From Narcine bancroftii (taxonomy: Eukaryota): a stretch of 64,000 bases of DNA. The notes beneath the pieces are model-generated. The model saw only the letters and a list, made by a program, of their open reading frames with translations, was not told the origin of the DNA and searched no databases. The stretch's first letter is position 1. The number at the start of each line of letters is the position of its first letter. Made by a program: the position numbers and the translations under genes. Location: positions 96,534,001-96,598,000 of the forward strand of contig NC_091480.1 of NCBI RefSeq assembly GCF_036971445.1, read 5' to 3'. Of the stretch, positions 1-58,710 are shown piece after piece.

Positions 1-30
1 AAGGCTTCTGTGATTTCTGTTTTCATTATG

Positions 31-150
31 TGTCTGCCTGTCCAGCATCGGACTTGTCAGCCACAAACGAGCCTGCAGCTGTCGTGGACATTACCCCTCC
101 ATAAATCTTCGTCCGCGAAGCCAAGCCAGAGAGAGAGAGAGAGAGAGAAA
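31..150 (+). mobile_element. RTE-clade LINE 3' end with (GA)n tail
   Basis: Near-identical to the copies at 2351, 14930, 33294 and 56070 (...ccataaatcttcgtccgcgaagccaagcca + purine tail). Confidence 0.85.
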
Positions 151-539
151 GATGTTCTAATATAATGTATTTGTTTTTAATTTCTTTTTAAAATATTTTT
201 ATTAATTTGATTGAGAAATATTACATGTATACATTGATCAGATATTAATTAATTATATAGCTTTTATATAATACAATACAGAATATGATCACATATCCAT
301 TATACATTGTCTTATATAATTCTCAAAAAAAGTGAAATATCCTTGAGAATTGCACCTCGTATTCTAATACTGAGATGTACATTATGATTATCTAAATAGA
401 CCAATCTCTTCTAGTTATAAAAAAAATGAGGTCAAAAGAAAACACACCCATTCTAATCCAACCCCTCCCACTAAACAAAGTCACCAGCAAATAAATTGTA
501 AAGAATCAAGTCTTGGCTCTCGAACATCAGATAGAAACC

Positions 540-900
540 CACTAGAGCTCCCCTGCCTAAGTAATCAAATTATGATCATGGTCCATGAATGGGCCCCATG
601 TCTTGTCAAATTCACCCTTGATCTCTTTAACATTAGATCTAATTTTCTCCAAACTCAAGCAAGACACTAGATCCCGTAACCATTGCATGTGAGTCAGTCC
701 TCTGCTGTCTTTCCATCTTATCCAAATTGCTCATTTGGCCAGTATTGAGGTAAAGGCTACTATTCTTTTGAGTTAAGTTCAAGGAAATCTGCTTTTCTTG
801 AGAATAACCAAACAAAGCAATAAAGGATATGGTTCTAATTTAATCCTAAGAATCTGTGATAGAGTTTTAAAGAATTGTTCCCAATATTCTTGTAGTTCTG
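540..900 (-). mobile_element. Degenerate L1/Tx1-like LINE ORF2 C-terminal fragment
   Basis: The minus strand reads ...WK...THMQWLRDLVSCLSLEKIR...FDKTWGPF, which resembles fish L1 ORF2 ends. Confidence 0.55.
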
Positions 901-923
901 GACGTATTTGTTTTTAAAACTAG

Positions 924-1127
924 GGAAATTTGAAATTTTCAATGGATGGGGATTCCACTCTCATTGAGAGCAGTAAGTTGGTATCAGTGATTGCAGAGCT
1001 GCTCTCGACAAAGACTGATGCAGTAGAAAAGGCCTTGTTGTATCGTACTGTTGCTACAGGACGTGATGTGATTGACAAGCAACACACAGATCAGGAAGCC
1101 AGCTACGGACGGGATGCATTCGCCAAG
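924..1127 (+). CDS. MYO1D: Myosin-Id coding exon (1st in window; 204 nt; [10 protein letters not shown]...SYGRDAFAK)
   Basis: tag|GGA acceptor at 921-923 and AAG|gtaatg donor at 1128. The peptide matches the MYO1D motor sequence as I recall it ([43 protein letters not shown]). Confidence 0.96.
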
Positions 1128-1419
1128 GTAATGTAAGCCTTTCTTACAATAAGGATTTGAAAATTGTTTGTAACACCTAATGATTGTCTCTTTGCTAGAA
1201 GTATGCAACATTTTATTTGTTCCTTCAACGATGTTGAATAGCTGTGTAGAAGATCCTCAGTGAGTACATGCCAACTATTTCCATCCCATTATCCATGAAA
1301 ACTTGTATTAATATAACATCTATGTGATAATATGCTTAAAGGGAATTAAAATAAAGTATAACTAAAACCATGAACTAAGCAGTTCTTTAATTTATATCCC
1401 TCATAATTTAATTTTAATT

Positions 1420-1930
1420 TTTTAAAATTTAGTCATACAGCACAGTAACAGGCTCTTCTGCCCACGAGTCCGTGCCGCCCAATTTACACCCATTTAACCT
1501 TCAACCGCCAGTATGTTTCAAATGGTGGGAAAATCCAGAACCCGGGGCCATGGTTCGAGGATAATAGGCAAACCATTTAGGACCGAGATGAGGAGGAATT
1601 TCTTGACCCAGAGGGTGGTGAATCTGTGGAATTCATTGCCACAGAGGGCAGTGGAGGCAGGTTCATTAAATCTATTTAAGAGGGAATTAGATCTATTTCT
1701 TCAGTGTAAGGGTATTAAAGGTTACGGAGAGAAGGCGGGGCCGGGGTACTGAACTTTAAGATCAGCCATGATCTCGTTGAATGGCGGAGCAGGCTCGAAG
1801 GGCCGAATGACCTACTCCTGCTCCTATCTTCTATGTTTCTATGAAACCAGAACTCCCGGAGAAAACCCACGCAGACATAACTCCTTATGGACAGCGTGCG
1901 ATTCGAACCCCAATCCCGATCACTGGTGCT
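1420..1930 (-). mobile_element. tRNA-derived V-SINE (HE1-like), interrupted by a CR1 insertion
   Basis: Aligns by eye to the uninterrupted copies at 13060, 24645 and 34487 on both sides of 1531-1843. Confidence 0.8.
1531..1843 (+). mobile_element. CR1-type LINE 3' end (5'-truncated)
   Basis: The ORF reads TRGH...FLTQRVVNLWNSLP...FKRELD, the CR1 ORF2 C-terminus. It is followed by the 3' UTR stem and a ttctatg repeat tail. Confidence 0.88.
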
Positions 1931-2350
1931 GCTATATTAGGTCATTCGTCAGGTTCCTCTGTTCCAGGGAAGATAAACTCAGCCTATCCAATTTCTCCTT
2001 ATAAAATAATGCTCTAATCCAGGTTACGTCCCAGAAAATCTTCTCTGCAACCTCTCCTAAGCCACCGCATCCTCCTTGCGGTACTCCAGGTGTGGCCAAA
2101 TCAACATTTTAAAAAGATGTGACGTGGACATTTCAGTTCTTATTTTCTATACCATTGTCAAAAAAGGCCAGCATCCCATAATGCCTTCTTCCTTAGCATC
2201 TTAGTCAATTGTGCTGGCACTTTCAAATCTCCTCGGTTCAAAATTTCCTCAGGCCCTACAATTTACTGCTCGTGTCCTACCCTTGCTTACTTTCTCATCA
2301 GGATTAAATTCAATTTACCATTATACCACTCATCTTTCCAGCTCATCTAT

Positions 2351-2526
2351 AAGGCAAAGGAGGAAAAACCCAACACCCAACCCCAACCAACCAATTTTCC
2401 CTTGCAACCGCTGCAATCGTGTCTGCCTGTCCCGCATCGGACTGGTCAGCCACAAACGAGCCTGCAGCTGACGTGGACTTTTTACCCCCTCCATAAATCT
2501 TCGTCCGCGAAGCCAAGCCAAAGAAA
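2351..2526 (+). mobile_element. RTE-clade LINE 3' end, inserted in an old minus-strand CR1 relic
   Basis: Encodes FPCNRCNRVCLSRIGLVSHKRAC*, the C-terminal Zn-finger-like motif of RTE ORFs. Confidence 0.88.
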
Positions 2527-3391
2527 TATGTTTGCCTTGAGCGGCTTCCTTTGCTATCTACAGGACAGCCAATTTCATATAATCTGCAAACTTATCCCAA
2601 CTTGTACTGTCCAAATCATTCATGTCCATCATGAATATCGGGGATCCCAGGTTAAATCCTGTGATTCACCACAAGTCATAGATTACCATCAGAAAATAAA
2701 CTCTCAACCACCTTCCTCTGCTTCTATTATCAAGCCACTTTTGCATCCAATTTGCCTGCTGACCCTTGATCCCATAGACTCTCTCCCAGTAAATCAGCCT
2801 CCCACATGGGCCCTTATTAAAGGCCTTGCTAAAGTCTATATAGAAAATATTTCTCTACTCCTTAACATTCTTACCTTCTCAAAACGTTCAATCAAATTTG
2901 ATGATTTCCTGCAAATAAAGCCATGCGAACTGTTCTGATTTTATCCCTGCCTTTTCAAGTGAAGATAAATTCCAATGACTTCCTTATCGCTGATTTAAGA
3001 TTCACTGGCCTGTAGTTATCTGACTTAACCCTGCTACCCTTTTAAATAAAGGAAAGCATTTGCTGTCCTTCTGTAATCTGGTACTTAAACCATGGCAAAT
3101 GTATCTCAGAAGTGATCTCTAATTAAAAAGAGGAATGGAAATAGAAAAGCCTCTTCCAGATGCAAATCGGGAGAATGAATTATGACCAGCTGCTGTAGTT
3201 TTTTTGGTGTATTGTGGTCTGATTGAGTATTATCTGATTTTTCCCTCAACATATTGAGGCTAAATTAATTTAAGTTCATAAGAAAGATAACCATTAACAA
3301 ATAATTCATTGATTATCTCACTTGTCGGCAGAATCACAAATAGCAATGAGGTAGCGTACAGGAGGGAAATAGAGCAGCTCTTTGAGGGGTA

Positions 3392-3680
3392 AACACAGGA
3401 TTCTGTTGACACCGTGGTTAAGTGAAAAAACCCACAAATGCTGGAGAAACTCAGCAGGTCAAACAGTGCCTTTATGTCGCAAAGGTAAAGATACATCACC
3501 AACGTTTCGGGCTTGAACCCTTCATCGAGGTGTGGGGGACAAAAGGGACCTCTCTCTCGTGTTTCCCCCCACATCTTGATGAAGGGCTCAAGCCCGAAAC
3601 GTTGGTGATGTATCTTTACCTTTGCGACATAAAGGCACTGTTTGACCTGCTGAGTTTCTGCAGCATTTGTGGGTTTTTTT
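3392..3680. mobile_element. Palindromic Penelope-like terminal element with hammerhead motifs on both strands
   Basis: Inverted arms at ~3426-3540 and ~3563-3680. 17-bp target duplication cagctctttgag(g/t)ggta at 3375-3391 and 3681-3697. The same terminal sequence adjoins a Penelope GIY-YIG remnant at 31320-31640. Confidence 0.8.
3570..3610 (+). ncRNA. Minimal hammerhead ribozyme motif (Penelope-type, U3 variant)
   Basis: UUGAUGA - stem II gggc/tcaa/gccc - GAAA - palindromic ACGU - GUU. This fits the minimal HHRs described in Penelope-like elements. Activity is not shown. Confidence 0.6.
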
Positions 3681-4449
3681 CAGCTCTTTGAGTGGTATCA
3701 CACCAACAACCTTGTGCTCAATCTTAGCAAAACAAAGGAGATGATTGTGGACTTCAGGAGGAAGTCAGGGGAACACAGCCCACTCCTCATCAAGGGCTCA
3801 GTAGTGGAGAGGATCAAGAACTTCAAATTCCTGGGTGTCAACATCTCCGAGGATCTGTCCTGGAGCCTCCATGTTGATGCAATCACAAAAAAGGCTCACC
3901 AGCGGCTCTACTTTGTGAGGTGTTTGAGGAGATTCGGTATTTCACCGAAGACTTTTGAAAACCTTTACAGAGCATTCTGGCTGATTGCATCACTGCCTGG
4001 TATGGAGGCGCCATCTCTTAGGACAAGAAAAACTCCAGGGGGTTGTTAACTCGGCCTGCGACATCAGAGGGCACCAGACTTCACTCCATCGAGGACATCT
4101 ACATGAGGCTGTGTCTTAAAAAAAGCAGCCTCTATCCTCAAAGACCCTCGCCACCCAGGCCACACCCTCTTCACTCTGCTGCCATTGGGAAAAAGGAACA
4201 GGAGCCTAAAGACGAGCCCTCAGCAGCAAAGGGACAGCTTCTTCCCAGCTACCATCAGATTCCTGACTAATCAATGAACCAAAGACGCTGCCTTACTTCT
4301 CATGCACTATTAGTTTTTTTACAGTATTTGTTGTAGGATGGTTATAATATGAATGTTTGCCCTTTGACGCTGCCACAAAACACAGAATTTCATGACTTGT
4401 TCATGACAATAAATTCTGATTCCGACTTGTTTTTGCATTTGTATTGCAG

Positions 4450-4595
4450 GCAATATATGATCGCCTTTTCTGTTGGATTGTCAACCGAATCAACGATATT
4501 ATTGAAGTTAAGAATTATGATGCCAGAATCCATGGCAAAAATACAGTAATTGGTGTCTTGGATATCTATGGCTTTGAGATCTTTGACAACAACAG
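4450..4595 (+). CDS. MYO1D: Myosin-Id coding exon (146 nt; AIYDRLFCW...[16 protein letters not shown], switch II)
   Basis: ttgcag|GCA acceptor and AG|gtgtgc donor. Contains the myosin switch-II motif DIYGFE; phase 0 to 2 fits the neighbouring exons. Confidence 0.97.
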
Positions 4596-5183
4596 GTGTG
4601 CATTTAAAAAGACAATTTACAAGAAGCGTGTACACTATGGTCCTTGGAAAAACTGTGGGGGGGAAATATTTTGCTTTGAAAATCATTATCTGTAAGGTTA
4701 TTAGAGGCGGGGGGGAGGAGGAAATATTCTGTATTATAAAACAGACGTAAGAGTCTCTTTTCCCAATTCTGAGATACTTAAACTCTGATACAGTGAAATC
4801 CTGCCTTTGGGTATTGTCACACCAGACTACAAAGTGTTCAGATACTAAGTGGGAAGGTATTCTTCTGGTGAGCCAGTCCATGTATATTCTTTCTTAGTTC
4901 TAGAGTGACTGTCATCCGATCTGTGATTAATGTGAAACGATAAAAAGAGTATTTCCACGACCGTGTGGCCCAGTGGCATCAATGAAAGTGGAACAAATTT
5001 TAAAATGACTGATCTTGTCATCAGTTGGCACTCCATGCCAGTACAGGATCAAGAGAAACCATAGATAGGACAGCTATAAATTATTAAATTATGTGTCCCT
5101 GGACACATTAGAATTTTACAATCAACACAGAGGGTGATCCAGTTTGCTCTGACCCACATGACCAATTCATAGCATTTAAACTA

Positions 5184-5986
5184 CAGTACAACTCCGATTA
5201 TCCAAAATCTGATTCTCCAAAATCCTCATTTATCTACAAATTTTTAAAATTTCGGATAAATGAGGATATCAGAAATCATAATTTTTCCAAATTTTTTTTA
5301 GAGCTGAACTGAAGTCACAGGTTAGAAAAAAAAAAATTCACTCGACATGAAATTAGAACGACGATTGTCCTCGTTTCAGGTAACTCCCTCTCCTCTCTCT
5401 TTCCATTTCTTCTTTATTCTTCCCCATTGACTTTCCTCTCAAACTGCGTGCCAGCTGTCAGAAGAATCCCTTGCCCCAGCGGAGCGGGACCTCGGACTCA
5501 ATAGTGCTCCCTTCCCTCCTATTCCCTTCCCTCCCTCCTATTCCCTTCCCTCCCTCCCTCCCTCCTCGGCACACCGGAGCTCCTAACGCCAAACTCTCCC
5601 CTTGGCCTATTACCGCACATGCACACCGGAGTCGGGACTCGGGCGTCAGGAGCTCCGGTGTCCAGGGAGATAAGTCTCTGTTGACTCGCTAGTGAGTGTT
5701 CCACTGGCCTGGGAAGCCTCCCTGGGGATCAGCGGTTGGGAGGTCTCGGTGATCAGCAATGGGTGGTGGCATTGCAACCATCATTTTTTTTTTGTTGTAA
5801 GAATTAAACATTATTTTAATGCTTAAAAAGCCTTCTCTCTTTATTTGTTGTTGTTTAAACATTGATACAATTGATTTGGTGTTGCTGCTGGGCTGTTTTT
5901 TAAATGACCAGTTCTTTTGGAGGAAAAAAAATGTTTAACTGACATAGGCGCAGTCCCGAGCATTTCGGATAATCCAAGTTGTACTG
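5184..5986. mobile_element. Non-autonomous Tc1/mariner (Tigger/pogo-like) DNA element
   Basis: TIRs CAGTACAACTCCGATTATCC and GGATAATCCAAGTTGTACTG, flanked by TA on both sides; no transposase ORF. Confidence 0.82.
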
Positions 5987-7469
5987 TATGTACTTGTTCA
6001 TTGAGTTGATAGAAAGATTTTATTTTCCCGAATGCCATACTATGGTGACAAGTGTTCGTACAGTATCACAACCATTAAGTAAAATGTTATGGTATGAGGT
6101 ATATCTGCAACTCACCAAATATTGATTTGAATGATGAATTCCGCTTCATAAGTCCTCAGACAAATATCATTAGCCAAAGAAATCCAGCCACGTTCAGCCA
6201 GGCATCTGTCAATGCACATTGTCAACAAGTCCCAAAGAAATGCTTTTGATACCTTGTTCCAAATAATTAGACATCATTACAGTTTTGGAGTTGACAAAAT
6301 ATACACTGGACTGCCTGGTTTTCTCAACCAGTGTGGTTTAATAACCTGTGATTAATGGTATCATTAATACAGTGAGGGAGCCAACAGTGAAGGAAATGAC
6401 ACGTGGACTCTGTAGTCATCAACTTGGTCCACTTGTTTGTTCTAGAATATTTTCATTCATAATATTAAGCAAAAATGTGTTTGTGTGTCAATAAGAGAGA
6501 AATTACTGGCTTAGCAAGAGAATTCCTTTCCATTTAATATTTGTAGACTGATGTGACAATTTCCAAAGGCAGGAATTCACTGTATCTCAGAATTGGGGTA
6601 AGACTCTTTTGACTGGCGTAGACAATTGTTGTTAGAAGTTCTCAATGATTTGACCTGGTATTTTGCATTCCTTCTGCAAGCCCTCAAACTGCCCAGATTT
6701 ATTTTGATGTTGGGCAGGGATATTAGGGGGAAATGCTTAAATCTTTACCCAAGGGTGGTCTATTGATTTATTGAATACATATTTTAATTATTTCATCCCT
6801 TTCCTGAATGTTTTGTTGAATAAGCACTCATGGTCTTGCACTACATTTGGTGGTGAATATTTAGAAGGGTCTTTAGCAAACCCTGCAGTAGATTTAACAG
6901 CTATGTCTTTGGAGTTGGCACTCTTCCCAAGGTACAGCAGCCAGTCATGGAAACCTTTACACTAATCAGTTCCTTTTTTTCTCCTGTACATGATAAATTT
7001 TGAAAGGTTGACAGTTATTGGAAAATATGAAGATGTTGCAAATTTAAAATATAACCAGGAAATATTAATTGGATCATGTAGCATCTGTTGAGAGAAAAAC
7101 AAGAATTAATGTTTTGCGCCGATTATCTTTTGCTTTCGTGGTGACAGGTTGAGCCATGTAATGGCTATCTTACAGATCTAATCCCTGATCTGCTGCATAC
7201 AAAGTGAGCCTGCTTATGAAGCCCATAGCATTAAACTCTATAAACTTCAGCCTTTTATATTGCCTCATGTTTTTGGCAGCCAGAGGATAGATTTGGGTGC
7301 AGCATATACTGATATGGATTAGGATTAATCTCAAAGGCAAAATCTAAACTTTTCTCTGTACTTTCTTTTCTAAGATAGTAAAAAGGTTGATTTGGGGGGG
7401 GGGGGGGGGGAAACACAAAGTAGGTCATTTCAGGCGCAACAAATGTTAACTGTATTTTTGCTTCTGCAG

Positions 7470-7584
7470 CTTAGAACAGTTTTGCATCAACTATTGCAAT
7501 GAAAAATTACAACAGCTCTTCATTCAGCTTGTCCTGAAACAGGAACAGGAAGAATACCAGCGTGAAGGGATCCCGTGGAGACAT
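7470..7584 (+). CDS. MYO1D: Myosin-Id coding exon (115 nt; (S)[15 protein letters not shown]...EGIPWRH, relay helix)
   Basis: ctgcag|C acceptor and CAT|gtgagg donor. Contains [14 protein letters not shown]. Absent from the ORF track; read by hand. Confidence 0.96.
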
Positions 7585-8394
7585 GTGAGGGCAGAACGAG
7601 TTTATATCTGTTCATGCTTGTCTGATTGCAATCAGCCCCCCGAAACATAATGCCTGTGTGAGCTACTTATGCTTGTCAATGTCTTCCAAAGAATATTGCA
7701 GTAATGCTCTTTAGAAGGACATTTTATCTTAATTTTTTAATGATCAAGTACTTTATACTGATGAATTGTGCATAACTTCCATAACCATATTGATTTACTT
7801 AATTGCTTCCATCTAAATTGAATTAATCGGAGTTTCAGAGTATTTAAGCCTTTTGATATTGTGGTCCTAGAGATAAATTTAATCCTCTCACAAAAAAAAG
7901 ATCCATGTTCCAGAATATCATCAGGAATAGACAATTAGAGCTTTGGCACTGAACGATACTCATGGTTTTGAGATTTTTGTGAATTTTCCCAACATAAGAA
8001 GATGCAAATAATTTAATGATATGCGGTCCTTTGATTCAAAATGGGTTTGTATCCTTATCTGCAATGACCTCATACAAAAGAGATGTAGCAGATAACACAA
8101 GGAGCAGATTCGCCTTCTCCACCCCCAGCAACCGGATCCTAATTTAGGGGGGATTATAATTCAGTGACTTTTAATGTAGTTTTGTTTATAACCATATAAC
8201 CATTTACAGAGCGGAAACAGGCCGTGTTGGCCTTTCAAGTCCACACCGGTTCACTGATTTTGTGCGCCCTCTTCAGCCATTGGTGATTTGAAGTGTAGTG
8301 TATCTTTGAGAATTTTAGCATCTATCCTTAGGTACTCTGTACTTTGGATGTGAAATCTCATATTAAAATATTCAAAAACATTGGCTGTGTGGGA

Positions 8395-9225
8395 GAAGCC
8401 AGTGAGTGGCCGTGGACAATTACTTCTCAGACTGCAGGCCTTGGACTAGTGGTGTGCTGCAGGGATCGGTGCTGGGACCAGCGTAGCTTGTCATCTCGAT
8501 CCACAATCTGGACAACAATGTGGTGATTGGATCAGCAAGTTTGCAGACAATACTCAGATCAGAAGCATGGTGGACAGCAAGGAAGGTTTTCAAAGCTTGC
8601 AGAGGGGTCTGGACCAGCTGGAATAAACAGCAGATGGAATTTAACATGAACAACTGTGAGCTGTTGCGTTTTGAAGGACAAACCATGAAAAGACGGTGAA
8701 CGGTCGGACACTGAGGAGTGCAGTAGAACAGAGGGAACTGGGAAACTGCTGTCACAGGTGGATAGAGTTGTAAAGAGAGTTTTTGTCATATTGGCCTTCA
8801 TATATCAAAGTACTGAGTTTCAAAGTGTGGAGTTTACGGTGAAGCCAAAATTGGAGTCTTGTGTGCAGTTGTGATCACCTAACGACAGGGAAGATATCAA
8901 TAAGATTGAAAGAGAAAATTCACTAGGATGTTGCTCGGACTTCAGGAAATCATTTCCAAGGAAAGGTTTAACAGGTTAGGACTTTATTCCCTGGAGGGTA
9001 GAAAAATGAGTGATATTTAAAATTATGAGGTGGATAGACGGTAAACGTAGGTCAGCGTTATCCACTCAGAGACAAACCAGCAGATTTGGGATAAGAGTGA
9101 AATGGGAAAAGTTGAGAGGGAAAATTGGAAGAAATTTGTTCAGAGAGTAGAGGGAATGTGGAATGAGCTGCTGGGTGATGGTGAATGAGGAGTCAATTTT
9201 AATATTGAAGAATATGGACTGGTTA
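8395..9225 (+). mobile_element. Degenerate CR1 LINE fragment (RT to 3' region)
   Basis: Remnants of SGV.QGSVLGP, SKFAD, MEFN..CE and LYSLE motifs, with frameshifts. Confidence 0.75.
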
Positions 9226-9377
9226 TCTTCTGCACAATTAACGGAACTCTCAACTTTTCTTAAAACTCATCCCAAGCTCTCTACATGCAGCGGTATATTT
9301 GATCATTTTGATTTCTGCCACTATTATTGTCTAATCTGATTGTACGAATATCACCGGTTCTTCTCGCTCCTCTGCAG

Positions 9378-9548
9378 ATTGACTACTTCAACAATCAGAT
9401 CATTGTGGATTTGGTGGAGCAACAACACAAGGGGATCATTTCAATTCTTGACGATGCCTGCGTTAATGTGGGAAAAGTCACAGATAAGATGTTCTTGGAA
9501 GCCCTGAACACCAAACTGCAAAAACATGCTCATTTTTCCAGCCGGAAG
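9378..9548 (+). CDS. MYO1D: Myosin-Id coding exon (171 nt; [14 protein letters not shown]...HAHFSSRK)
   Basis: ctgcag|ATT acceptor and AAG|gtaatt donor; 57 codons, including [10 protein letters not shown]. Confidence 0.96.
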
Positions 9549-10208
9549 GTAATTGTTACTTGTAAAATAGATGAGAGGGTCAATGACTGTGAATAGTTGA
9601 CGTGTGTTCATGAGTTTTGGTAAAATGCCACAAGCAGAAATGAAGCCTAAAATCTTAAAGGGCAAAGATTTTTTTAAATGACAAGGAACTGAAAGAGCAG
9701 AATCATTTTCCCCCAGCCTCATTGACATAGGTTACAGGCCTGGATGAAAGGGGTCATAATTTCAAACTTTGCAGACAGTAGATTTTTTTATTTAGTTATC
9801 AACAAGTAGAGTTGACACATTCATAACTCCTGTCGTCCTCTATCAACACAATGTTTAATGTGACCTTGAATTGCTTTGTCATTCAGCCTCCACAGAATTG
9901 GGTTAGAGAGTTCCAAAAGTCATGGCCCCCTGAGAGAAATCAGACAGCGTGGAAATTGAGCCTTCACCCAACCCATCTGTGCTGACCCAATTTGCACAAC
10001 TAGGCGAGGTTCAATTTCCTCGTGCTTGGCCCATGTCTAACTAACCTTTTCCTATCCATGTTCTTGTCCAAACTTTTTTTAAATGTCATAATTATATCCA
10101 CCTCTACCATTTTCTCTCACTGGTCATTAAATGTTCACACCATTATCTATGTGAAAATGTCCCTTTCCCCCTATATTCTCTAATTTTAGACTCTCCAACC
10201 CTGGGTAG

Positions 10209-12341: not shown

Positions 12342-12637
12342 AAGCTAAATCCTGGCTGATATCAAGTAATTCAAATTCATGCTGGAATTGAACCTAGGAT
12401 CCTCCTTTGCACAGATGCATGGTATTGAACCTCACTTGTGTTGTCAGATTAGAGTGTGATAGGATTTATGTGGCAAGCTTTGGCCAGTCGATTGGTTGTC
12501 ATTCCATTCCTTCCTGAAGTCGCAAGTTAATTCAGTAATTTAAAATAAAAAGAGAACCTGTTCTTATCCATTTGACCAAACATTATGGAGATTGTACACA
12601 AAAAAGAAATGGAGAAAAATTCCAAACCTAATTGACC
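12342..12637. repeat. Left arm of a ~295-bp inverted duplication (partner 14224-14522)
   Basis: Direct reverse-complement match with only scattered mismatches and small indels. Confidence 0.92.
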
Positions 12638-13059
12638 TTGTATTCTGCTCTTGTGAGATTCGCAGGTCTGTATGGACAGAAGCTGTCATGGTGAAATGCA
12701 AATCGTTTGCTTCATATCTACATAGGGATTAGTTGGCCTATTTATTTCTGGCCTAGATTTTTTTAAGTTTAAAAATAGACAGATAGCAGTTGCACAATGT
12801 GAGAGAGCTGAAGTGAAATGAACATCCTCTTTGTTATATGATTGCAGAAATGTGCCAATGTGTGAAAAAAGTGGCTGAGAGTTCAATATCTTTGAAGCAT
12901 TTTTAGGCAAGGAAGGATCTTGGTTATATTCTATTTCAGTTAAAGGTAATCACATAGTTCATGACTAAGGAAGAGGTGGCATCCCTGCACTTTTGCTGTT
13001 CTTCCTTGTTAATCTACCCTGTGTAACCAGAAAGAGCATGGATTTTAATTTTTAATTTT

Positions 13060-13280
13060 TTTTTAAATTTAGACATACAGTACGGTTACAGGCCCTTTCA
13101 GCCCATGAGCCCGTGCTGCCCCAATTACACCCAATTGACCTACAACCCCCCGTAATTTTTTTGAACGATGGGAGGAAGTCGGGGCCCAGGGAAAACTCAT
13201 GAAGACACGGGGAAAATGTACAAATTCCTTACAGACAATATGGGATCCGATCGCTGGCACTGTAACAGTGTTGTGCCAGC
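13060..13280 (-). mobile_element. V-SINE (HE1-like)
   Basis: V-domain (ttcctccca, gaatttgtacattttccccgtgtct on the minus strand) and a CR1-like tail gggcctgtaaccgtactgtatgtctaaa. Confidence 0.8.
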
Positions 13281-14223
13281 CTAACCTCTTTCTCCCATTC
13301 TGTTAGGCCATAAAAGGATGCTTTGTAAATATTTTCTTTGCAATAAGGCTGAAGGAAGAATGTCTCATCTGTTGAGTTCTACAATAACTGCTAAACTCGG
13401 TTGGAAAAAAAAAGGAAATGCGGTAAATCTGAAATAAAAATAGAAGATGCTGAAAACCCTCAGCAAGTCGAGCAGCATTTGAATTACAGGTTAGGGTTTG
13501 TCAAAACATTATTAAAACATTAACTTTTGGGAGCCAACATGCTTAAGGGAGAAATATTAAAAATCATTTTGCAACTCATCTGCTGAACCTTTCCAGGATG
13601 TGCAGTTTGCAACCTCCACAATCACAGTCAAGAGGAATGAATTAAGTTGAAGTGGTTTTAAGTTGCCTGCAAATTTGTATGATTGTAAAATTGCTAAAAT
13701 TTTTGACAATTTCTGCAAGATGTGTAATTTCCAGCTCTTTAAGAAAATAAATATGTGTACTGTAATTCCTTTACAGAAACTTTAAAATAAAAATGATTCA
13801 ACACTTTCTATTTTAAAATAAGTTTATGATATGCAATGACTTTTTGCATTATCAAAAATGGATTTATTCTTCCCAGTTTTGCTCTGAGAATTCTTCAGTG
13901 ATTTGCTACTTGCCCTGATTGATGATGTTGTGATTCCATGACACCAGGGATCCCCTTGAATTGATGGCTGTTATTAAACAACATCCGAGAAGAATCACAT
14001 ATCAGTGTGTCCTTCTGTTTTTCAAAATTAACAGCAAATGCTGTCAGTTCAATTATCGGAAAATCTAGGTCAAAATATATGTACAAAATGATTATTTTTC
14101 AGAAAGAGAAAAATCTTTAATCACAACTGTTTTCTACAATGTAATTTATTTTCAAATAATAATCTGATACGATTCCTGCAGATTTTATTACTGTTGTGTT
14201 GTTGACATCACAATACTGCAACT

Positions 14224-14522
14224 GGTCAGTTTGGTTTGGAATTTTTCCCCATTTCTTTTTTGTGTACAATCTCCATAATGTTTGGTCAAATGGATAAGAA
14301 CAGGTTCTCTTTTTTGTATTTTAAATTACTGAATTAACCTGCGACTTCAGGAAGGAGTGGAATGACAACCAATCGACTGGCCAAAGCTTGCCACATAAAT
14401 CCTATCACACTCTAATCTGACAACACAAGTGAGGTTCAATACCATGCATCTGTGCAAAGGAGGATTCTAGGTTCAATTCCTGCATGAATTTGAATTACTT
14501 GATATCAGCCAGGATTTAGCTT
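14224..14522. repeat. Right arm of the inverted duplication (partner 12342-12637)
   Basis: Reverse complement of 12342-12637. Confidence 0.92.
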
Positions 14523-14929: not shown

Positions 14930-15463
14930 TTCTTCTTTCTTTTTTCTTTGGCTTGGCTTCACGGACGAAGATTTATGGAGGGGTAATGTCCACGTCAGCT
15001 GCAGGTTCGTTTGTGGCTGACAAGTCCGATGCGGGACAGGCAGACACGGTTGCAGCGGTTGCAAGGGAAAATTGGTTGGTTGGAGTTGGGTGTTGGGTTT
15101 TTCCTCCTTTATCTTTTGACAGTGAGGTGGGCTCTGCGGTCTTCTTCAAAGGAGGTTGCTGCCAGTCGAACTGTGAGGCGCCAAGATGCACGGTTTGAGG
15201 CGAGATCAGCCCACTGGGCTAAAGAGCTTTCTTTAGGCAGTCCTTGTACCTCTTCTTTGGTGCACCTCTGTCTCGGTGGCCAGTGGAGAGCTCACCATAA
15301 AACACGATCTTGGGAAGGCGATGGTCCTCCATTCTGGAGACGTGACCTACCCAGCGCAGTTGGATCTTCAGCAGTGTGGATTCGATGCTGTCGGCCTCTG
15401 CCATCTCGAGTACTTCGATGTTAGGAATGAAGTCGCTCCAATGAATGTTGAGGATGGAGCGGA
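14930..15463 (-). mobile_element. RTE-clade LINE 3' fragment (longest copy in the window)
   Basis: QLRWVGHVSRMEDHRLPKIVFYGEL..G.R.RG.PKKRYKDCLK motif plus the C-terminal CxxC...SH; disrupted frame. Confidence 0.9.
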
Positions 15464-23978: not shown

Positions 23979-24122
23979 CAGTGGTTCTCAATCTTTTTTT
24001 CCACTCACATACCACCTTAAGTAATCCCTTACCAACCACAATAACCCCAGTAGGTGGTCTGTGACTAGTAAGGGATTAATTAAGGTGGTATGTGTGGAAA
24101 AATGAAAGGTTGAGAACCACCG
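23979..24122. mobile_element. Palindromic hAT/Charlie-type MITE (monomer)
   Basis: TIRs CAGTGGTTCTCAA and TTGAGAACCACCG; internally self-complementary; degenerate 8-bp TSD ttttcatg/ttttagag. Confidence 0.8.
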
Positions 24123-25184: not shown

Positions 25185-26907
25185 CACACATGTCAAACTC
25201 TGGCCCTCGATATAATTATATTTTGCCCGCAAGATCATATCAAAAATGTATTAGAGGTGTCCCGCTGGCCGCCACGCCAGTATAGCGCATGCACAGTAAC
25301 CACTGTGTCCCAGGGTGAGAGAGAGAGAGAAAAATCCTGGTCCTTGAAAAGCAATGGTGGGTAGTTTTATAAACACGCTGTCGCGTCCCCCCGCCCACCC
25401 CCCCACCGCAGCGCAGCCTGGCCGGTGTCAGGGGAAGCCAAGGCCGCTTCCCAGCGCCCGGAACCCCAGTGGCACAGCGTTTCTTGGAGCTGCAGATGGA
25501 GTCGGGACGCCGGAGGGAAGATTGGGGCTCCCCGCCGGGCGATGGGGGCGCCGGCCGCCCTGCGCCTTCCCACCGGACCAGCGGCGGGTGCCCAGAGTAC
25601 ACGTGGAGAGCGAGGCTGGTCGGGCAGGTAGGGTGGAACCCCCCCCCCGCCAATCTCGGGAGTGGCGTGGGCTGGATCGGGATTAGCCACACTCACCTGC
25701 TCCTCCACCGCTGACCGGGATCCCAGCGCGGTCCTGAGCGCGGAGACTGCCCTGGAAAAGTCCTGGGACACCGGCACGGAAAGAAGAGCAGGGTCCATAG
25801 AACATTACAGATCAGAAACAGGCCCTTCGGCCCTCGTGAACACCCAACACTGGAGAAACTCAGCGGGTTAAACCGTATCCTTTATCCAGCAGAGAGGTAC
25901 CTGACAATGTTTGGCCCTTGATCCCCCTCATCAATGTATGAGCGAAAGTCTGTGGTTCTCGTAAAAACACCAGAAGGGAGAAACTCAGCAGGTCAAAGGG
26001 GGTCCGGGAGAAACTCGGCAGGTCAAAGGGGGTCCGGGAGAAACTCAGCAGGTCAAGGGGGGTCCGGGAGAAACTTGGCAGGTCAAAGGGGGTCCGGGAG
26101 AAACTCAGCAGGTCAAGGGGGGTCCGGGAGAAACTCAGCAGGTCAAGGGGGGTCCGGCAGAAACTCAGGGGGGGCCTGACTTCGCCAGGACCGTTGCCCA
26201 CTCCCCCTCCCTGCCGCAGGCCGACCCGCGACTCACGGTGACGGGGCCGCTGATCCGCAGAGATGCCGCCCTGCAGCGAGAGCCGATGCCCCCGCACTGT
26301 CGTTGTCCCACCCGATCGCCCGCAAACGCCGCCCTCCCGCACACAGGCCTGAGTAAGGATTATGAACTTTAATCTCAGGATAAAACGATCTTCTAATAGT
26401 TTCATGTCACAGTGATAAATATATTCCTGGTTAAAAATGGTCCTGCACCTGGATACAAGATCATTAGGCATAAAACTTGTAAAGTGTGTAAATCAAAGGA
26501 TATCTGTACCAATGGAAAAAGGGTATGGCAAATAACCCTGCTAGAGTTCATGCCCACAATCAGTCACCCATTTGATTGTTTCAGGAATCATGTTATTCTC
26601 CCACATTCTCAATAGCCCTCAGATTTTACTATTCGACAGCACACTAGCAACATTTGACAAATCCTCTATAGAGAAATATTATTTATTGAATATTTTATTT
26701 CTCATTTGTTAATGCTTCTGGAAAGAGTTTATCCAAAACTATTATTAAACATTTATTTTAATAAGAAAAAGTTTAACATTACATATGTTGAAAGAAGAGA
26801 AAACATGCAGATGTTGTTGAAAATTTTCGATAAATATTTAGTTCGGCCCTCGACTTAGTCCAAGTTTTTAATTTTGGCCCTCTGTGAATTTGAGTTTGAC
26901 ACCCCTG
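25185..26907. mobile_element. Non-autonomous hAT/Charlie element, 1723 bp
   Basis: Ends CACACATGTCAAACTC and GAGTTTGACACCCCTG; perfect 8-bp TSD CTTTAGAC at 25177-25184 and 26908-26915. Confidence 0.9.
25976..26168 (+). repeat. 30-bp minisatellite, ~6.4 copies (gggagaaactcagcaggtcaaagggggtcc)
   Basis: Head-to-tail units with exact 30-bp period and no spacers. Confidence 0.95.
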
Positions 26908-31319: not shown

Positions 31320-31640
31320 ATAAAACAAAAGTCTGCAGAAGTCAAAACAATGCTGGAGAAACTCAGCAAGTCAAACAGCGTATATAGCAAAGATAAAGAT
31401 ACACAACCAACGTTTTGGGCCTGAGCCCTTCATCGAGGTATGAGAAAAATGTAGCCAGGCACCTGAATAAAATGATGAGGGGGCCGGGGAAGAGCACAGT
31501 CCCACAACCAGGAGGTAGGTAAGGAAGGGAGGGCACAAGGGAGAGGGGAGATGGCTCTAAAGGGAGAGGTCAATGTTAATACCTTGGAGAGTGCCCAGAT
31601 ATTAGAATTTGTTCATCTAATTTATGGGTGGCCTTAGTTT
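31320..31640 (-). mobile_element. Penelope-like element 3' fragment (terminal repeat, purine tract, GIY-YIG tail remnant)
   Basis: ctggagaaactcagc...caacgttttgggcctgagcccttcatcgagg terminal motif, continuing into sequence homologous to 35490-35700. Confidence 0.7.
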
Positions 31641-31840: not shown

Positions 31841-32216
31841 CACTGGTTCCCAACCTTTTCCTTCCAACTCACATACCACTTTAAGTATTCCCTATGCCAT
31901 AGGTGCTTTGTGATTAGTAAGGCATTGCTTAAGGTGGGATGTGGGTGGAAAGAAATAAATTTGAAAACCACTGTTTTAATCGTCCCTAATTGACTCGTTA
32001 TGTGCACGGTTTCTTAACTCCAAAGGAAATGGGCCAATGACAATTTTTCTCAAGCAAAATATTCCAGTAACAATTGGGTCTAGAGCAGAGGTTCTCCACC
32101 TTCCCTTCCCACTCACATCCCACCTTAAGCAATCCCTTGCTAATCACAGAGCACCAATGACATAGAGAATACTTAAAATGGGATGTGAGAGGGAAGAAAA
32201 AGGTTGGGAACCACTG
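31841..32216. mobile_element. Composite hAT MITE: two inverted monomers (31841-31973, 32086-32216) around a 112-bp spacer
   Basis: Each half resembles the 23979 monomer. Outer flanks are ttttagat and tt-ttttagat; inner flanks are ttttaatc and gtctagag. Confidence 0.8.
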
Positions 32217-32301: not shown

Positions 32302-33272
32302 AGTGCCTTTCTCACACTTGCAAGTGATCCCAGGAATCAAATGCCAATCGGCCTTTAAGGTGGCAAGTCCGAAAACAAAATCAGCTCCACGGTGGCGTCA
32401 GACGATGCCATCTCACGCCAGGGGTTGACGGCCTCGACCCCTAGTACAATCCCCAGCATGAGTGCAGAAAGAAAAGATTAAAATGAAGGTATAAACTTTG
32501 TCGTGGGAAAGTTGCAGTGCGAGAGAGAGAGAGAGGAAATGAACTGCAATAAATAGCAATAGCAGACAATTTTTAAACAGCTTGGGAAAATTGGTCGCAC
32601 TGTAGCGCACAATTTATAAAGACCATGGGGGGAAAAAAGCAATGGTGGACCTGACTTTCCAGAATGCTGTGCGGCAGAGAAATCCTTCTATAAATCCTCC
32701 ATGCATGTAGCCGGGCATACAGCCTTTTCCCTGCCACATGGTATTCTGGGAGGGCAAGTCCACCATCGCTTCCCCCACCCCCCCCCCCATGGTATTTATA
32801 AATTATACACAATAGCTCTACCAACTTCCCCACACTATATAAATTGAGCACTCTAGTGCTACAAACTTTCCCACCCTGTTTAAAAATTGTCCGCTATTAC
32901 TATTTATTGCTCGCACTTTCCCATGGTCCCTTATAAAAGTTTATATCGGTTGGCACAACAACAATGTAGGCTAAAGAGCTCATACTGTGCTGTACATAAA
33001 GCTTAATTATGTTATAATTAGGCATGATTAATTTTGTTCAAATATAAGATCATAATACATTGATCAGGGTTTAAGGCAGATTCACCATCATTCGATGCGT
33101 CATGACATCACGAGTAGGAGGAGGAACACTCCTAACCCTGGGGGATGGCTCCTCGTGTGAAAGGGTTCACTGTCTCAGTTAGGAGTGGTCAAGTGTGAAA
33201 AGCAGGACCCCCCCATTCCTATCCTGAGACACTGAGCAGCCAATTTAGTGGGATGCAAGTGTGAAAGGGGCT
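32302..33272. mobile_element. Non-autonomous PIF/Harbinger-like element
   Basis: Imperfect TIRs agtgcctttctcacacttgca and tgcaagtgtgaaaggggct; internal inverted repeat ~32548-32592 / ~32863-32910. Confidence 0.62.
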
Positions 33273-33293: not shown

Positions 33294-33396
33294 TCTTCTT
33301 CTTTGGCTTGGCTTCGCGGACGAAGATTTATGGAGGGGGTAAAAAGTCCACGTCAGCTGCAGGCTTGTTTGTGGCTGACAAGTCCGATGCGGGACA
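33294..33396 (-). mobile_element. RTE LINE 3' end (short)
   Basis: Reverse complement of the 2430-2526 segment. Confidence 0.88.
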
Positions 33397-38793: not shown

Positions 38794-38993
38794 AGTAAAA
38801 CACAAAGGTCTGCAGTCACCATGGTTGAACTAAAAATAATGCTGGAGAAACTCAGCTGTGAGCTATTTATGTAGCAAAGATACAGATACACACCCAATGT
38901 TTCGGCTTGAGCCCTTCATCAAGGTACAGTACCTTGCTATATAAAGTACACACTGTTTGACCTGCTGAGTTTATCCAGCATTGTGTTTCTACT
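38794..38993. mobile_element. Partially palindromic Penelope-like terminal element
   Basis: gctggagaaactcagc ... gctgagtttatccagc inverted arms; minus-strand cttgatgaagggctcaagccgaaac. Confidence 0.72.
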
Positions 38994-41900
38994 CTGGTCA
39001 CGTGCATTATTTTTCTAGTTTTGTCAAATTCCTGTGCATGGAACTTCTAAATTTTAAGTGCATGACAGTTTTATGGGGCAATGAATATATAATTGTCTAT
39101 AAATATGCTTTGGTTTGCAATGAATACACATTAAAGATTAGGAGTACCACCATGTGAAACTATAAATTTACAAGGATATGTGGCAGAACTACACTGAATA
39201 TTTTTGTTTTGCATCTCCACTCCTTCTAAATGTGCTTCTGATTAATGGCGATGGGGAAACACTCGATTAGTAACGTCAGAAGTCAATTTTCTGATTTTTA
39301 ATCCTGAAAAAATCATCCATGAAGATTTAAAGTCCCTTATTCTTTTTCAATAGCAGTTTAAGCCCACCTGCTGAACCCATGAAAAGGTTGAGCAGATTTT
39401 GTTCATTCATTTTTGTTGCTCCATTTTTAAGAGTGTGCTTTTACCCACTCTCATTTGCACTTTCTTATTGGACTGTCTGAAGTCAACTAATTTGGCTAAA
39501 AACACAATCACTTGAAGGCTTTGCAGATGTTCAGAGGAAAACTGTAGATTCATTACATCACGTAGGTTCAGGAATCCTTTTGTACTTTTACAAGGGTTTC
39601 TGATGGTACAGTACCCAGGACATAAATAGTCTGGTCTAATTACAAACAGCCTCAAAATCAAGCAAATGTTGCAAATCATTTATAATAATTATTGAAGTCA
39701 ATCTTAATAACACATGCTAAAAATTGTTAGGCCGTTGGCTGTTTGAGGAATTTGGATGCGGACTGATTTAAAGCTTCGGATGATTTGGGGGAAATGCCTG
39801 ATGTCTGTCCACAGAAGTTTTAACGGTATTTGCAATTTCAACAACTGTAAAAGGCAGTAGACAATTGAAATAAAAAATGGCACAGATATTTCTAGCAGGT
39901 CAGGTGAGCCGATTTTCAGTTGCAGTAAAATTGAAATTGGCAACTGTTTTCTTTAAGTTGTTGGTGCTAATAGTTGATTAAAATCGCCTACACAGCTATT
40001 TACAGGGTTCATAATTTCTGGGGGATATTTGAAGAGGGGAAACTCTAGGCACTTGGAATCAGCTTCGCAGCCTGTGTGGTTTTATAATTTACCATGTGTC
40101 AGCATGGAAACTCCTGCGACATTAAGATTTGTTTTCTTTTTTTTTTGTCTAATAATCTAAAGATGGAAGGCACTCGATCGTCAATTTGAGCAACAAGGCT
40201 AAAATTTCAGTGTGTGAGAATTGGGCAAATGAGAAGATGCGGAGAAACTGCAAAGGGCAGGAGGAGCAAAAAGATTTTTTTGTTTGAGCGATAAGGAGAG
40301 GTTAGACAGATTTGGTTTGTTTTCTCCAAAGTATCAGAGGCTTTATAGAAGTTTCTAAAATTATGAGCGGTGTTGACAGGTAGTCGGTTGGAAATTTCTC
40401 TCAGGATATAAATGTGGCGTATAATAGAGCGTGCATATAAGGTGAATGCGAGGGGTGGGGGGGGGGGAGTTTAAAGGAGGTATGTGGAGTGGTAAATGCC
40501 TGGATTGGTGATGAAAGCTTTAAGAGGCTTCGAGGTAGACAAGCGAGTATACAGGAATGGAAGGATATTTATCACATGCAAGGAGCAGAGTTTTACTTTA
40601 ACTTGAGCATCATGTAATGGTGCATGACACATGGGCAGAAGAACCCGTTCCTTTGCTGCTCTATTCTCCGTTAATTGGGTGGAAGAAGGGGGCCGTGCTG
40701 TAATGCGGGGAGGGCTTGGTAATGGGATAGGCAACGGAAATTCTCTGAAAGGAGGTGCACGCTGGAAAAGTAAAATCAAAGTAATGAAACCTCTTTGAAT
40801 TTTTCTTTCACCCCAAATGATAAAATTACTTCAAATACCTATTCAGCAGCATCGTTTCACACTGCAGAATGGAATGAAATGTACCTAATTCTTTTGCATC
40901 ATGCAATTTTAGGGTCTGGCAGCATTCTTAATGTGTGATAAGTCTTCATTCTTGTTTGGTGTTTGCAATTTTGAAATTCAGCCCAATGGAATCTGACAAA
41001 ATGCATTGATACAGCCTGTTAGGATGGGAATGCTACACTATCAAAAAATAATGAGGCGGATGTTGCTCTGAGTCACCACTAAATAGGTTGCAGAGATTAT
41101 TCATTAACAATTTATTCCAGTGCAGCATGGAATAATTGTTTGTTTTGGCCTGCGTGGGTAATTCTCCAACTGAGAATTTAGACTCCAATGGGGGCCCTCT
41201 GATATTGTTGTGACTTGTAACTTTAAAAAAAATCCCACCAATTTCAGATAACTCAATTCTGAATTCATGATTCTTTTTTTTTCTGTCTGCGGCATTCTGA
41301 AGATATTTTCAGGAGTTGCAATTCTTCCTGCCCTTCAATATCTCGTCCAAGTTGGCCACGTGTGAGCCAAGGCTAGAAGCACAGTCACTTCCTTGGCAAT
41401 TTTTCCCTTCTTTCTTTTTGCTCAATGTGTCATCATTGCCCAACCAATGCTTCCTGGCCCTGAAGAGCTTTCACTCGATTTCAAACCTTGTTTTACTTGT
41501 TTTCATTGGCAAAAAAAAAAAAATCAAGGGTTTTGGAAATATTTTTGTTGCCACCCAAGCAGATGTAAGAAATCTGAGTTAATTGGACCTGGGACCTGGT
41601 GATCGAGATTGCTTGAACCATGCAATCGCCCAGTCTCTCCTTTACACATCATTATTTTTCTTACCTTATGAATAGTTTGACATGGAGCTCCCACGACAAG
41701 CACAGGGCTGTTAATAAGCCAGTTGGAGGGCTGTTTTATCCAAAGTTTTATCTATCTAGTCTGCTCATAAAGCGAGCTTAAATGATCACATTATCCTATG
41801 TTCTGAATATTAATGAATTAAATAATTAACACCTAAAACACTTTTATCACATCATTTATCTATGGTGCTTTTGGGGCTCAATATGCAATTTTATTGCTGA

Positions 41901-53361: not shown

Positions 53362-54025
53362 CCTACAAAAATAAATTAAAATAATGTACAAAAAGTCAAA
53401 GGAAGGCAGTGTCTTTGGTTCATTGATCATTCAGGAATTTGGTGGCAGCGGGGAAGAAGATGTCCTTGTGTTGCTGAGTGCTCGTTTTGAGGCTCCTGTT
53501 CTTCCTTCCCAGTGGTAGCAGAGTAAAGAGAGAATGGACTGGGTGGTGGAAGTCCTTGAGGTTAGAGGCTGCTTTCTTAAGACACTGCCTCTTGTAGATG
53601 TCCTCTGTGGAATGAAGTCTGATGCTCATGACGTTGCAGGCCGAGTTAACAACCCTCTGGATATTTTTCCAGGAGTATTGTCTTCTCCGTACCAGACAGT
53701 GATGCAACCAGCCAGAATACTCTCCACGGTTTACCTGTAAAGGTCTTCAGTGACATACCGAATCTCCTCAGACACCTCAAAAAGTATAGCAGCTGGCGGT
53801 CCTTCTTCATGATTGCATCAATGTGGAGGGTCCAGGGCAGATCCTCAGAAATGTTGACACCCAGGAATTTGAAGTTCTTGACCCTCTCCATTACTGAGTC
53901 CTTGATAAGGACTGGATTGTGTCCTCCTGCCATCCACAACCATCTCTGTGGCTTTGCTAATGTTGAGTGCAAGGTTCTTGGTGTGACACTACTCAATGAG
54001 CTGATCTATCTCCCTCCTGTACAAT
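53290..54025 (-). mobile_element. Rex1/Babar-like LINE 3' fragment
   Basis: ERVKNFKFLGVNISEDL.W..HIDAI.KK..Q.LYFLR.LRRFG; antisense homologue of 3700-4420. Confidence 0.82.
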
Positions 54026-54532
54026 CTCAAGAGAGGTGCTGCACAACACCCTGTTATTAGAGCTTTAAGAAAGGCACATTATTGCGAGAGCATTTCCCGT
54101 TACATCAATAAAATTGAGACAAAGGATGCTGTTGGTCAAAAATAATTTAAATCATGTCAATGAGGTTACCTTGAACTCTTCAGGAAAGACAGATTGTGAA
54201 CAACATTTTATTTTACAAATTGGTCTGGTTAGCCATTGTAGCACATTTAAGTAAAAGCCTCATTTTCTTTTCACTTCACATAATAGTTAGTAAGGGAGAA
54301 GTACAGAAGAAACCAAAACTTGACTGCTTCACAGGGAAGGGGTGCATAATCTTCGAGCAGAATCCTGGGGCAGCCATAGGCAATAAAAAGTTGAGAAATG
54401 GGTGGTCTAGGTTAATAAGTGATTTTTTTTTTCCCAATGACTAATATTTCAAAATGTGCACCACAAAAAGTTGAAATTTGAATGTAACTTGTTTGTATGA
54501 ATCGTGCTTGATTTTTTTATGCATTTAGTGTC

Positions 54533-56069: not shown

Positions 56070-56273
56070 TCTTCTTTTCTTCTTTGGCTTGGCTTCGCGG
56101 ACGAAGATTTATGGAGGGGGTAAAAAGTCCACGTCAGCTGCAGGCTCGTTTGTGGCTGACAAGTCCGATGCGGGACAGGCAGACACGATTGCAGCGGTTG
56201 CAGGGGAAAATTGGTGGGTTGGGGTTGGGTGTTGGGTTTTTCCTCCTTTGCCTTTTGTCCGTGAGGTGGGCTC
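56070..56273 (-). mobile_element. RTE LINE 3' end
   Basis: Near-identical reverse complement of 2351-2526. Confidence 0.9.
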
Positions 56274-58444: not shown

Positions 58445-58710
58445 ATGATTAAGTAAAAACACAAAGCTGGAGAAACTCAGCAGGTTAAATAGTGTGCTTT
58501 ATATAGCAAAGATAAAGATACGTAAACAACGCTTTTGACTTTGAGCCCTTCATCGAGGTCATGATTGATGAGGGGCTCAAGCCTGAAATGTTCGTTATCT
58601 ATCTTAATCTTTGCTATATAAAGTGCATTGTTTGACCTGCTGAGTTTCTCCAGATTTGTTTTTACTTCAACCACGGTGCTTGCAGACTTTGTGTTTTACT
58701 TTTTATCATT
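58445..58710. mobile_element. Palindromic Penelope-like terminal element, second full hairpin
   Basis: Inverted arms centred near 58560; ttgatgaggggctcaagcctgaaa on +, with the counterpart on -. Confidence 0.78.

What the first reader, a model, noticed from the sequence alone, without database searches (positions are those of the whole stretch)
3392..3680. Palindromic mini-element with hammerhead ribozyme motifs in both polarities
Seen: a 289-bp insertion with its own 17-bp TSD, splitting a LINE. It is an almost perfect hairpin with ~115-bp arms. Each strand carries a hammerhead-like core next to the loop: + strand ttgatga-gggc/tcaa/gccc-gaaac-gtt, and - strand tcgatga-gggt/tcaa/gccc-gaaac-gtt. 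Established: Penelope-like elements carry minimal hammerheads that act as dimers, and often insert with an inverted terminal copy. Inference: this protein-free, ambisense-ribozyme hairpin is either a recurrent Penelope insertion product or a retrozyme-like non-autonomous unit that moves on its own. In MYO1D pre-mRNA it would form long dsRNA. This is the best candidate for an undescribed system in the window.
Basis: partly seen in the sequence, partly recalled or inferred. Interest (0 to 1): 0.7.

Follow-up and report, generated by a model that had tools for sequence, protein, structure and literature searches.

The report
Mirror-image Penelope stub in myosin intron
This hairpin is two back-to-back end pieces of a common Penelope-type jumping gene, a pattern already described for that class; no other copy in the genome shares its centre, so it was likely built on the spot at insertion and is not a hairpin that moves by itself.

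Summary
The hairpin is real: 114-nt arms, 96% complementary, a flanking duplication, splitting a LINE inside a class I myosin intron. Arm plus tail is the 3' end (pseudo-LTR plus tail) of a ~3.3-kb Penelope-like element with RT and GIY-YIG motifs in the same genome; the second arm is an inverted, tail-less copy. The mobile-unit idea fails. The centre occurs once in the genome. Of 90 tail-bearing copies, 35 are hairpins, no two have identical breakpoints, and only 4 keep both hammerhead motifs. Both motifs here are predicted to be locked in the stem (56-60 kcal/mol), and the minus-strand one has a core mutation. Inverted copy plus one-sided tail, and opposite-strand hammerhead pairs, are published features of these elements. 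This scan noted the same kind of insertion before (70 notes, at least 11 genomes). The added value is mechanistic: outer ends are fixed at two sites, the arms often look copied from different RNAs, and 5' ends pile up at the hammerhead's start, not at its cleavage site. Ordinary; low interest.

The parts
3356..3386 (+). Left stub of the interrupted LINE
   Evidence: Aligns 28 of 31 nt to sister copy at 53941-54120 (minus), directly before the part that matches 3681 onward
3375..3391 (+). Left copy of target-site duplication; 3375-3386 unambiguous, 3388-3391 also fits the element's tail end
3388..3424 (-). One-sided tail (family length 36-40 nt); in a full-length copy it runs straight into the ORF-bearing body
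3425..3538 (-). Tailed arm: 5'-truncated pseudo-LTR of the Penelope-like parent
   Evidence: 94-96% identical to 20 of 20 fetched family ends, many of which run upstream into EN-coding sequence
3497..3532 (-). Minimal type I hammerhead-like motif, core U3 plus private U4C and a stem II C>U; predicted cleavage point after 3501; predicted inactive
3539..3565 (.). Unique centre: 7 nt of antisense parent sequence joined through GG to ~20 nt of sense parent sequence; about 17 nt of the tailed arm appear to be missing
3566..3680 (+). Inverted, tail-less pseudo-LTR copy ending at the T-run
3572..3607 (+). Minimal type I hammerhead-like motif with the family-wide U3.G8 core; predicted cleavage point after 3603; predicted to be locked in the hairpin
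3681..3697 (+). Right copy of target-site duplication
3681..4420 (+). Rest of the interrupted LINE (3' fragment)
   Evidence: 78% identity over 751 nt to 54004-53295
4450..4596 (+). Next exon of the host class I myosin gene, about 770 nt downstream; the previous exon ends near 1127

Best explanation
This is a single, 5'-truncated insertion of an endonuclease-bearing Penelope-like retrotransposon, made of a tailed end piece and an inverted tail-less end piece, likely built at the moment of insertion and likely inert since. Shown: identity of both arms and tail with the parent's 3' end; two fixed outer ends about 38-40 nt apart; variable inner ends; target-site duplications. Inferred mechanism: the parent's enzyme nicks both strands about 12-17 nt apart; one nick primes cDNA from the tail end, the other from the T-run at the pseudo-LTR end (the two start sites shown in vitro for the anole element); both cDNAs stop early and are joined head to head, often through a few shared bases. 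In a good share of cases the two cDNAs were probably copied from different RNA molecules. The two hammerhead motifs are passengers: they lie on opposite strands, so they cannot form the dimer in one RNA, and each is predicted to be paired with its own complement.
For: Parent: copies continue upstream into RT and GIY-YIG-like frames; 91 homologues carry PF00078, many also PF01541; one copy reads inverted pLTR, pLTR plus tail, ORF, pLTR. Two ends: 17 of 30 long RT-bearing copies end at the tail and 7 at the arm end; 9 and 15 of 30 core-picked copies. Hairpins: 35 of 90 tail-picked loci; inverted arm ends within 2 nt of the arm end in 26 of 35; no identical breakpoint pairs; microhomology in 19, blunt 1, extra bases 15; TSD of 12-20 nt in 20 of 35. 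The tail-less arm reaches further upstream than the tailed arm in 18 of 35, which copying the tailed cDNA cannot give. Arms differ at the T/C polymorphism +41 in 7 of 21 tail-picked hairpins against 8.8% background (p = 0.0015). Arms grade up to over 1 kb into EN and RT. Window centre unique. Literature: PMC11167929 (two RT start sites bound the tail, both strands cut and extended, predicted dimer), PMC8557442 and PMC3846280 (inverted 5'-truncated copy, one-sided tail, TSD), PMC4209133 (opposite-strand min-HHR pairs 100-700 bp apart).
Against: No biochemistry on this family. In the 16 BLAST-picked hairpins only 2 are discordant at +41, and pooled 9 of 37 is below the random-pairing expectation (p = 0.003), so single-donor events or later arm homogenisation also occur; +41 is not linked to any other site (best p = 0.08), so it is not shown to be a lineage marker. 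The window's own arms share two uncommon variants, which fits one template or fold-back equally. A junction like the window's recurs in one other hairpin and in two non-hairpin copies with only a short inverted piece, which suggests snap-back can happen. Deletions at palindrome centres after insertion could add to the spread of breakpoints.
Confidence: 0.8

Rival explanations
1. Same ordinary Penelope product, but the second arm arose by snap-back: the tailed cDNA folded onto itself at its 3' end and copied itself to the T-run (self-priming, akin to the proposal in PMC3846280).
For: The window's junction can be written as a GG/CC fold-back; its arms share two uncommon variants; two non-hairpin copies carry only a short inverted piece with this junction.
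Against: In 18 of 35 hairpins the tail-less arm holds sequence absent from the tailed arm; the stop at the T-run is sharp (26 of 35 within 2 nt) and matches a site where simple copies also end; arms disagree at +41 in 7 of 21.
Confidence: 0.13
2. The hairpin is a non-autonomous, retrozyme-like unit that is transcribed, cut by its hammerheads and re-inserted whole; centres diversified later by deletion.
For: Outer ends are shared by all hairpins and many have TSDs; two breakpoint pairs recur within 2 nt; one other hairpin has a junction like the window's.
Against: Centre found once with up to 2 mismatches; 5 of 5 exact-core hairpins have different centres; only 4 of 35 hairpins keep both motifs with stem I; no head-to-tail tandem here; forcing either hammerhead costs 55.9-59.5 kcal/mol; 0 of 43 simple copies begin at the predicted cleavage site; the related junction gives 4 matches against 5 in the control.
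Confidence: 0.04
3. A simple tailed insertion was converted into a palindrome later, by repair or replication template switching unrelated to the retroelement's enzyme.
For: Arms share rare variants about 7 times more often than shuffled arm pairs (17 of 2240 columns), so some post-insertion copying between arms may occur.
Against: The TSD encloses both arms here and in 20 of 35 hairpins, and the inverted arm stops at a fixed element site.
Confidence: 0.03

Closest known systems
Complex insertions of EN+ Penelope-like elements (Arkhipova et al. 2013, PMC3846280; Craig et al. 2021, PMC8557442 Fig. 2 legend; passages read)
   Same: Inverted 5'-truncated copy next to the pLTR, 30-40-bp tail at one end only, TSD around the whole unit, microhomology at 5' joins
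   Different: Here both halves are cut down to about 115-150 nt, so no ORF remains; TSDs are longer (12-20 nt against 8-10 in the rotifer examples)
[quoted passage not shown]
   Same: 4-bp stem I, extra base between 9 and 10.1, G10.1-C11.1 pair, no helix III, palindromic 15.2-16.2; pairs on opposite strands 100-700 bp apart already reported
   Different: Family core is U3.G8 (44 of 44 U3; 46 of 52 G8), neither C3-G8 nor the U3-A8 covariant described there; stem II is 4 bp
Poseidon element of Anolis carolinensis, PAc (Frangieh et al. 2024, PMC11167929; parts 1-2 of 4 read)
   Same: Two end points bounding a tail; tail continues into the element body; no sign of ends at the hammerhead cleavage site
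   Different: This family has the Cys-rich RT-EN linker of the Neptune/Nematis type; the paper's model, in the parts read, does not treat inverted products
Non-LTR retrozymes (Cervera and de la Pena 2020, PMC7229834, passages; bioRxiv 10.64898/2026.07.22.740005, part 1 of 5)
   Same: Short, non-coding, type I hammerhead, linked to PLE pLTRs
   Different: Retrozymes are head-to-tail tandems with same-strand ribozymes that release circular RNA; this is head-to-head, single, with a unique centre

Membership tests
EN+ Penelope-like element (parent) | One ORF with RT followed by C-terminal GIY-YIG endonuclease | tested here: met
   Decayed frames with RT and xIY-YIG motifs in that order; homologues carry PF00078 and PF01541. 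Direct Pfam scans of six decayed frames found nothing
EN+ Penelope-like element (parent) | Pseudo-LTRs, direct and/or inverted | tested here: met
   L082: inverted pLTR, pLTR plus tail, ORF, pLTR
EN+ Penelope-like element (parent) | Optional 30-40-bp tail at one end | tested here: met
   36-40 nt in 86 of 90 tail-picked loci; copies end at tail or arm end
EN+ Penelope-like element (parent) | Placement in the PLE RT clade by phylogeny | not tested
   No tree with named reference elements was built
Neptune/Nematis type | CX2-5CxxC motif upstream of GIY-YIG | tested here: met
   Motif present and aligned with three homologues; definition from PMC8557442. Neptune versus Nematis not resolved
Minimal type I hammerhead | Stems I and II, G12-A13-A14, A15.1-U16.1, H17, extra base after A9 | tested here: met
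Minimal type I hammerhead | C3-G8 (or U3-A8) core pair and U4 | tested here: not met
   U3.G8 family-wide; minus-strand copy also U4C
Minimal type I hammerhead | Self-cleavage as dimer or with protein help | not testable with these tools
   Needs in vitro assay
Non-LTR retrozyme | Head-to-tail tandem units with same-strand hammerheads | tested here: not met
   Two copies, head to head, opposite strands
Non-LTR retrozyme | Moves as a unit of defined sequence | tested here: not met
   Unique centre; no repeated breakpoint pair in 35 hairpins
Non-LTR retrozyme | Circular or linear unit-length RNA | not testable with these tools
   Only assembled contigs were available

The most novel reading that the evidence does not exclude
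The hairpin series is a genomic record of how Penelope-like elements make inverted ends: a dimeric enzyme primes from both nicks on two separate RNAs, one at each of the two start sites, and many cDNAs run off an RNA 5' end lying at the start of the hammerhead, so the ribozyme (here with a U3.G8 core) need not cut at all. The bolder reading, a self-mobile two-ribozyme hairpin, is nearly excluded (about 0.04).
Probability: 0.4. Interest if true: 0.45.

Novelty: new member of a known kind. Interest (0 to 1): 0.15.

Why it matters
As a locus it matters little: one decayed stub among more than a thousand family copies, in an intron about 770 nt from the next exon. As a series, such hairpins bear on an open step of Penelope-like transposition (how inverted ends and the one-sided tail arise, and whether the hammerhead must cut), and they give cheap, testable predictions for the in vitro system. 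They also add ~115-bp dsRNA stems to host pre-mRNAs, with untested effects.

Tried and rejected
Rfam: no hammerhead family at E<=10 in window 1-10000 or three sister loci; minimal motifs are not expected to score, so this is no evidence either way. Pfam on six decayed parent frames and PDB on one: no hits; the protein atlas could not take the query. Idea that 5' ends mark hammerhead cleavage: 0 of 43 simple copies begin at -31..-25; the 3 hairpin arms that begin at -28 join through 2-4 shared bases, two of them by stem I self-complementarity; rejected. A second 5' hot spot at +20..+27: not significant. A shared-junction subfamily: 4 matches against 5 in the control, 1 hairpin, 2 simple copies, 1 unrelated; rejected. 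Sequencing runs: no RNA holder listed on record, contigs only; they show the family and fold-back joints in related organisms but nothing on expression, RNA ends or an empty site. Paper searches for Penelope + twin priming + inverted, Penelope + shark + hammerhead ribozyme and C3U data gave no paper on this family, on twin priming of PLEs, or a rate for C3U; the library lacks most subscription papers, and supplements (e.g. the motif alignments of PMC4209133, which may hold U3 variants) were not read.

Full report
Observation. The arms are 3425-3538 and 3566-3679, 114 nt, 96% complementary, folding at -228.3 kcal/mol, z = -31. A 17-nt direct repeat with one mismatch flanks 3392-3680. A sister LINE copy in the window is continuous across the site, so the insertion splits a LINE about 31 nt from its truncated left end. 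Myosin motor-domain exons lie on both sides on the + strand; the best solved relatives are class I myosins, and MYO1D is a recalled name. The first 33-37 nt of the insertion are outside the hairpin.

Parent. A genome search with the 289 nt scored 40 of 4166 candidates and returned 18 other hairpin loci and many single-arm copies. Twenty single-arm copies were fetched; they share arm and tail at 94-96% and continue upstream for 160-1270 nt, many into an endonuclease-like frame. Longer copies span about 3.3 kb with RT motifs, a Cys-rich linker and an xIY-YIG motif. One frame finds 91 homologues; most carry PF00078 and some also PF01541; the best named hit is from a shark, so a cartilaginous fish host is inferred. 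L082 reads inverted pLTR, pLTR plus tail, ORF, pLTR, and its tail runs into the element body. The element's sense is thus the window's minus strand: inverted tail-less pLTR, centre, pLTR, tail. A 23-nt core motif has 1314 exact matches and a 26-nt tail motif 194 (controls 0). Tailed arms differ from the family majority by a median 6.4%.

Mobile unit or separate events. The window's centre matches only itself with up to 2 mismatches. Five exact-core hairpins have five different centres. I examined 90 of the 194 tail matches: the first 30 and 60 of the next 70 listed, skipping 5 already held (2 hairpins, 3 simple) and the last 5. One search flagged 37 hairpins; a stricter rule dropped L180 and L207, leaving 35. 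No two share both breakpoints; two pairs agree within 2 nt. Only 4 of 35 have both arms reaching stem I, so the two-ribozyme layout is not what is kept. Arms range from a few dozen nt to over 1 kb. The one junction resembling the window's gave 4 matches against 5 in the control: one hairpin, two simple copies with a short inverted piece, one unrelated. Later deletion at palindrome centres may add variety, and the window's own centre seems to have lost about 17 nt, but it does not explain the simple copies, the long arms or arms that disagree.

Mechanism. Outer ends are fixed at two sites. Of 30 long copies 17 end at the tail (one call doubtful), 7 at the arm end, 4 elsewhere, 2 not found; of 30 core-picked copies 9, 15 and 6. 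The inverted arm ends within 2 nt of the arm end in 26 of 35 hairpins. Frangieh et al. showed for the anole element two RT start sites bounding the tail, cutting and extension on both strands, and a predicted dimer. The simplest inference is one cDNA from each nick, one from each start site, joined at their truncated ends; 19 of 35 joins have microhomology and 20 of 35 have a 12-20-nt TSD. In 18 of 35 the tail-less arm reaches further upstream, in 14 the tailed arm, 3 equal; snap-back on the tailed cDNA cannot give the first class. At the T/C site +41 the arms disagree in 7 of 21 tail-picked hairpins (background 8.8%, p = 0.0015; random pairing predicts 48%), but in only 2 of 16 BLAST-picked ones, and the site is unlinked to others. 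Rare variants shared by both arms are 7-fold above shuffled pairs and concentrated in a few loci, the window among them; for this one locus snap-back or arm homogenisation remains possible. Target bases just before the duplication match the tail end at 68 of 170 positions against 20 of 102 further off, a modest and partly biased hint of priming by short homology; it explains the ambiguous last bases of the window's TSD.

5' ends. Among simple copies, 18 of 43 ends between -100 and +69 fall at -4..+7 of the core start (3.0 expected; window chosen after seeing the data); 6 of the 18 have an adjoining TSD and their flanks are unrelated. None begins at the predicted cleavage site. This may mark an RNA 5' end or an RT stall; in Drosophila virilis the intron ends at the 5' side of helix I. 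Untested.

Hammerheads. The layout fits the minimal type I motif of Cervera and de la Pena. The family core has U3 in 44 of 44 and G8 in 46 of 52 copies, neither C3-G8 nor U3-A8. The consensus core is C3 and C3G or G8C abolish cutting in the anole motif; I found no rate for C3U, so reduced activity is inferred. The minus-strand copy adds U4C. The motifs are on opposite strands and cannot dimerise in one RNA; forcing either fold costs 59.5 (+) or 55.9 (-) kcal/mol. In the pre-mRNA the complement is transcribed first.

Known. Inverted 5'-truncated copies, a one-sided 30-40-bp tail and an enclosing TSD are described (PMC3846280, PMC8557442, PMC2377424; passages), as are opposite-strand min-HHR pairs 100-700 bp apart. 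Retrozymes are same-strand tandems; two of their defining features fail here. This scan holds 70 notes on the same kind of insertion in at least 11 genomes and related notes in this genome; they are unchecked AI notes and were not counted as support.

Verdict. Real, ordinary, a new member of a known kind. Interest 0.15.

Noticed in passing
window 58446-58700: A second, older hairpin of a related subfamily, with a different centre and a diverged tail on the right.
   Followed up: partly
window 38800-39020, 31338-31452, 61516-61675: Further decayed pLTR copies: a lopsided hairpin (38800-39020) and two single arms.
   Followed up: partly
window 25977-26170: A 30-nt minisatellite of about 6-7 units built from a piece of the pLTR arm, next to a decayed arm at 25850-25940.
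   Followed up: no
L086:3041-6526 (G000 C11): A long head-to-head insertion whose two arms both reach into the RT, with over 1.1 kb self-complementary: the same architecture at large scale.
   Followed up: partly
L082:3287-8240 (as oriented): Near full-length parent whose 5' pLTR is split by a LINE piece with an open 425-aa RT frame.
   Followed up: partly
L126-L215: 5' truncation points pile up at -4..+7 of the hammerhead core start (18 of 43 simple copies).
   Followed up: partly
L149, L214, L184: A few hairpins have arms sharing 2-6 rare variants, suggesting gene conversion between arms after insertion or a single unusual donor.
   Followed up: partly
window 23981-24120, 31841-32216, 32546-32910, 12342-14522, 5222-5267: Other inverted repeats unrelated to this family by BLAST; the 299-nt pair at 12342/14522 is 97% identical.
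   Followed up: no
window 2351-2526, 14937-15134, 33296-33396, 56072-56273, 30-155: A young LINE 3'-end family (91-99% identical copies); the same end also interrupts the pLTR in L082.
   Followed up: no
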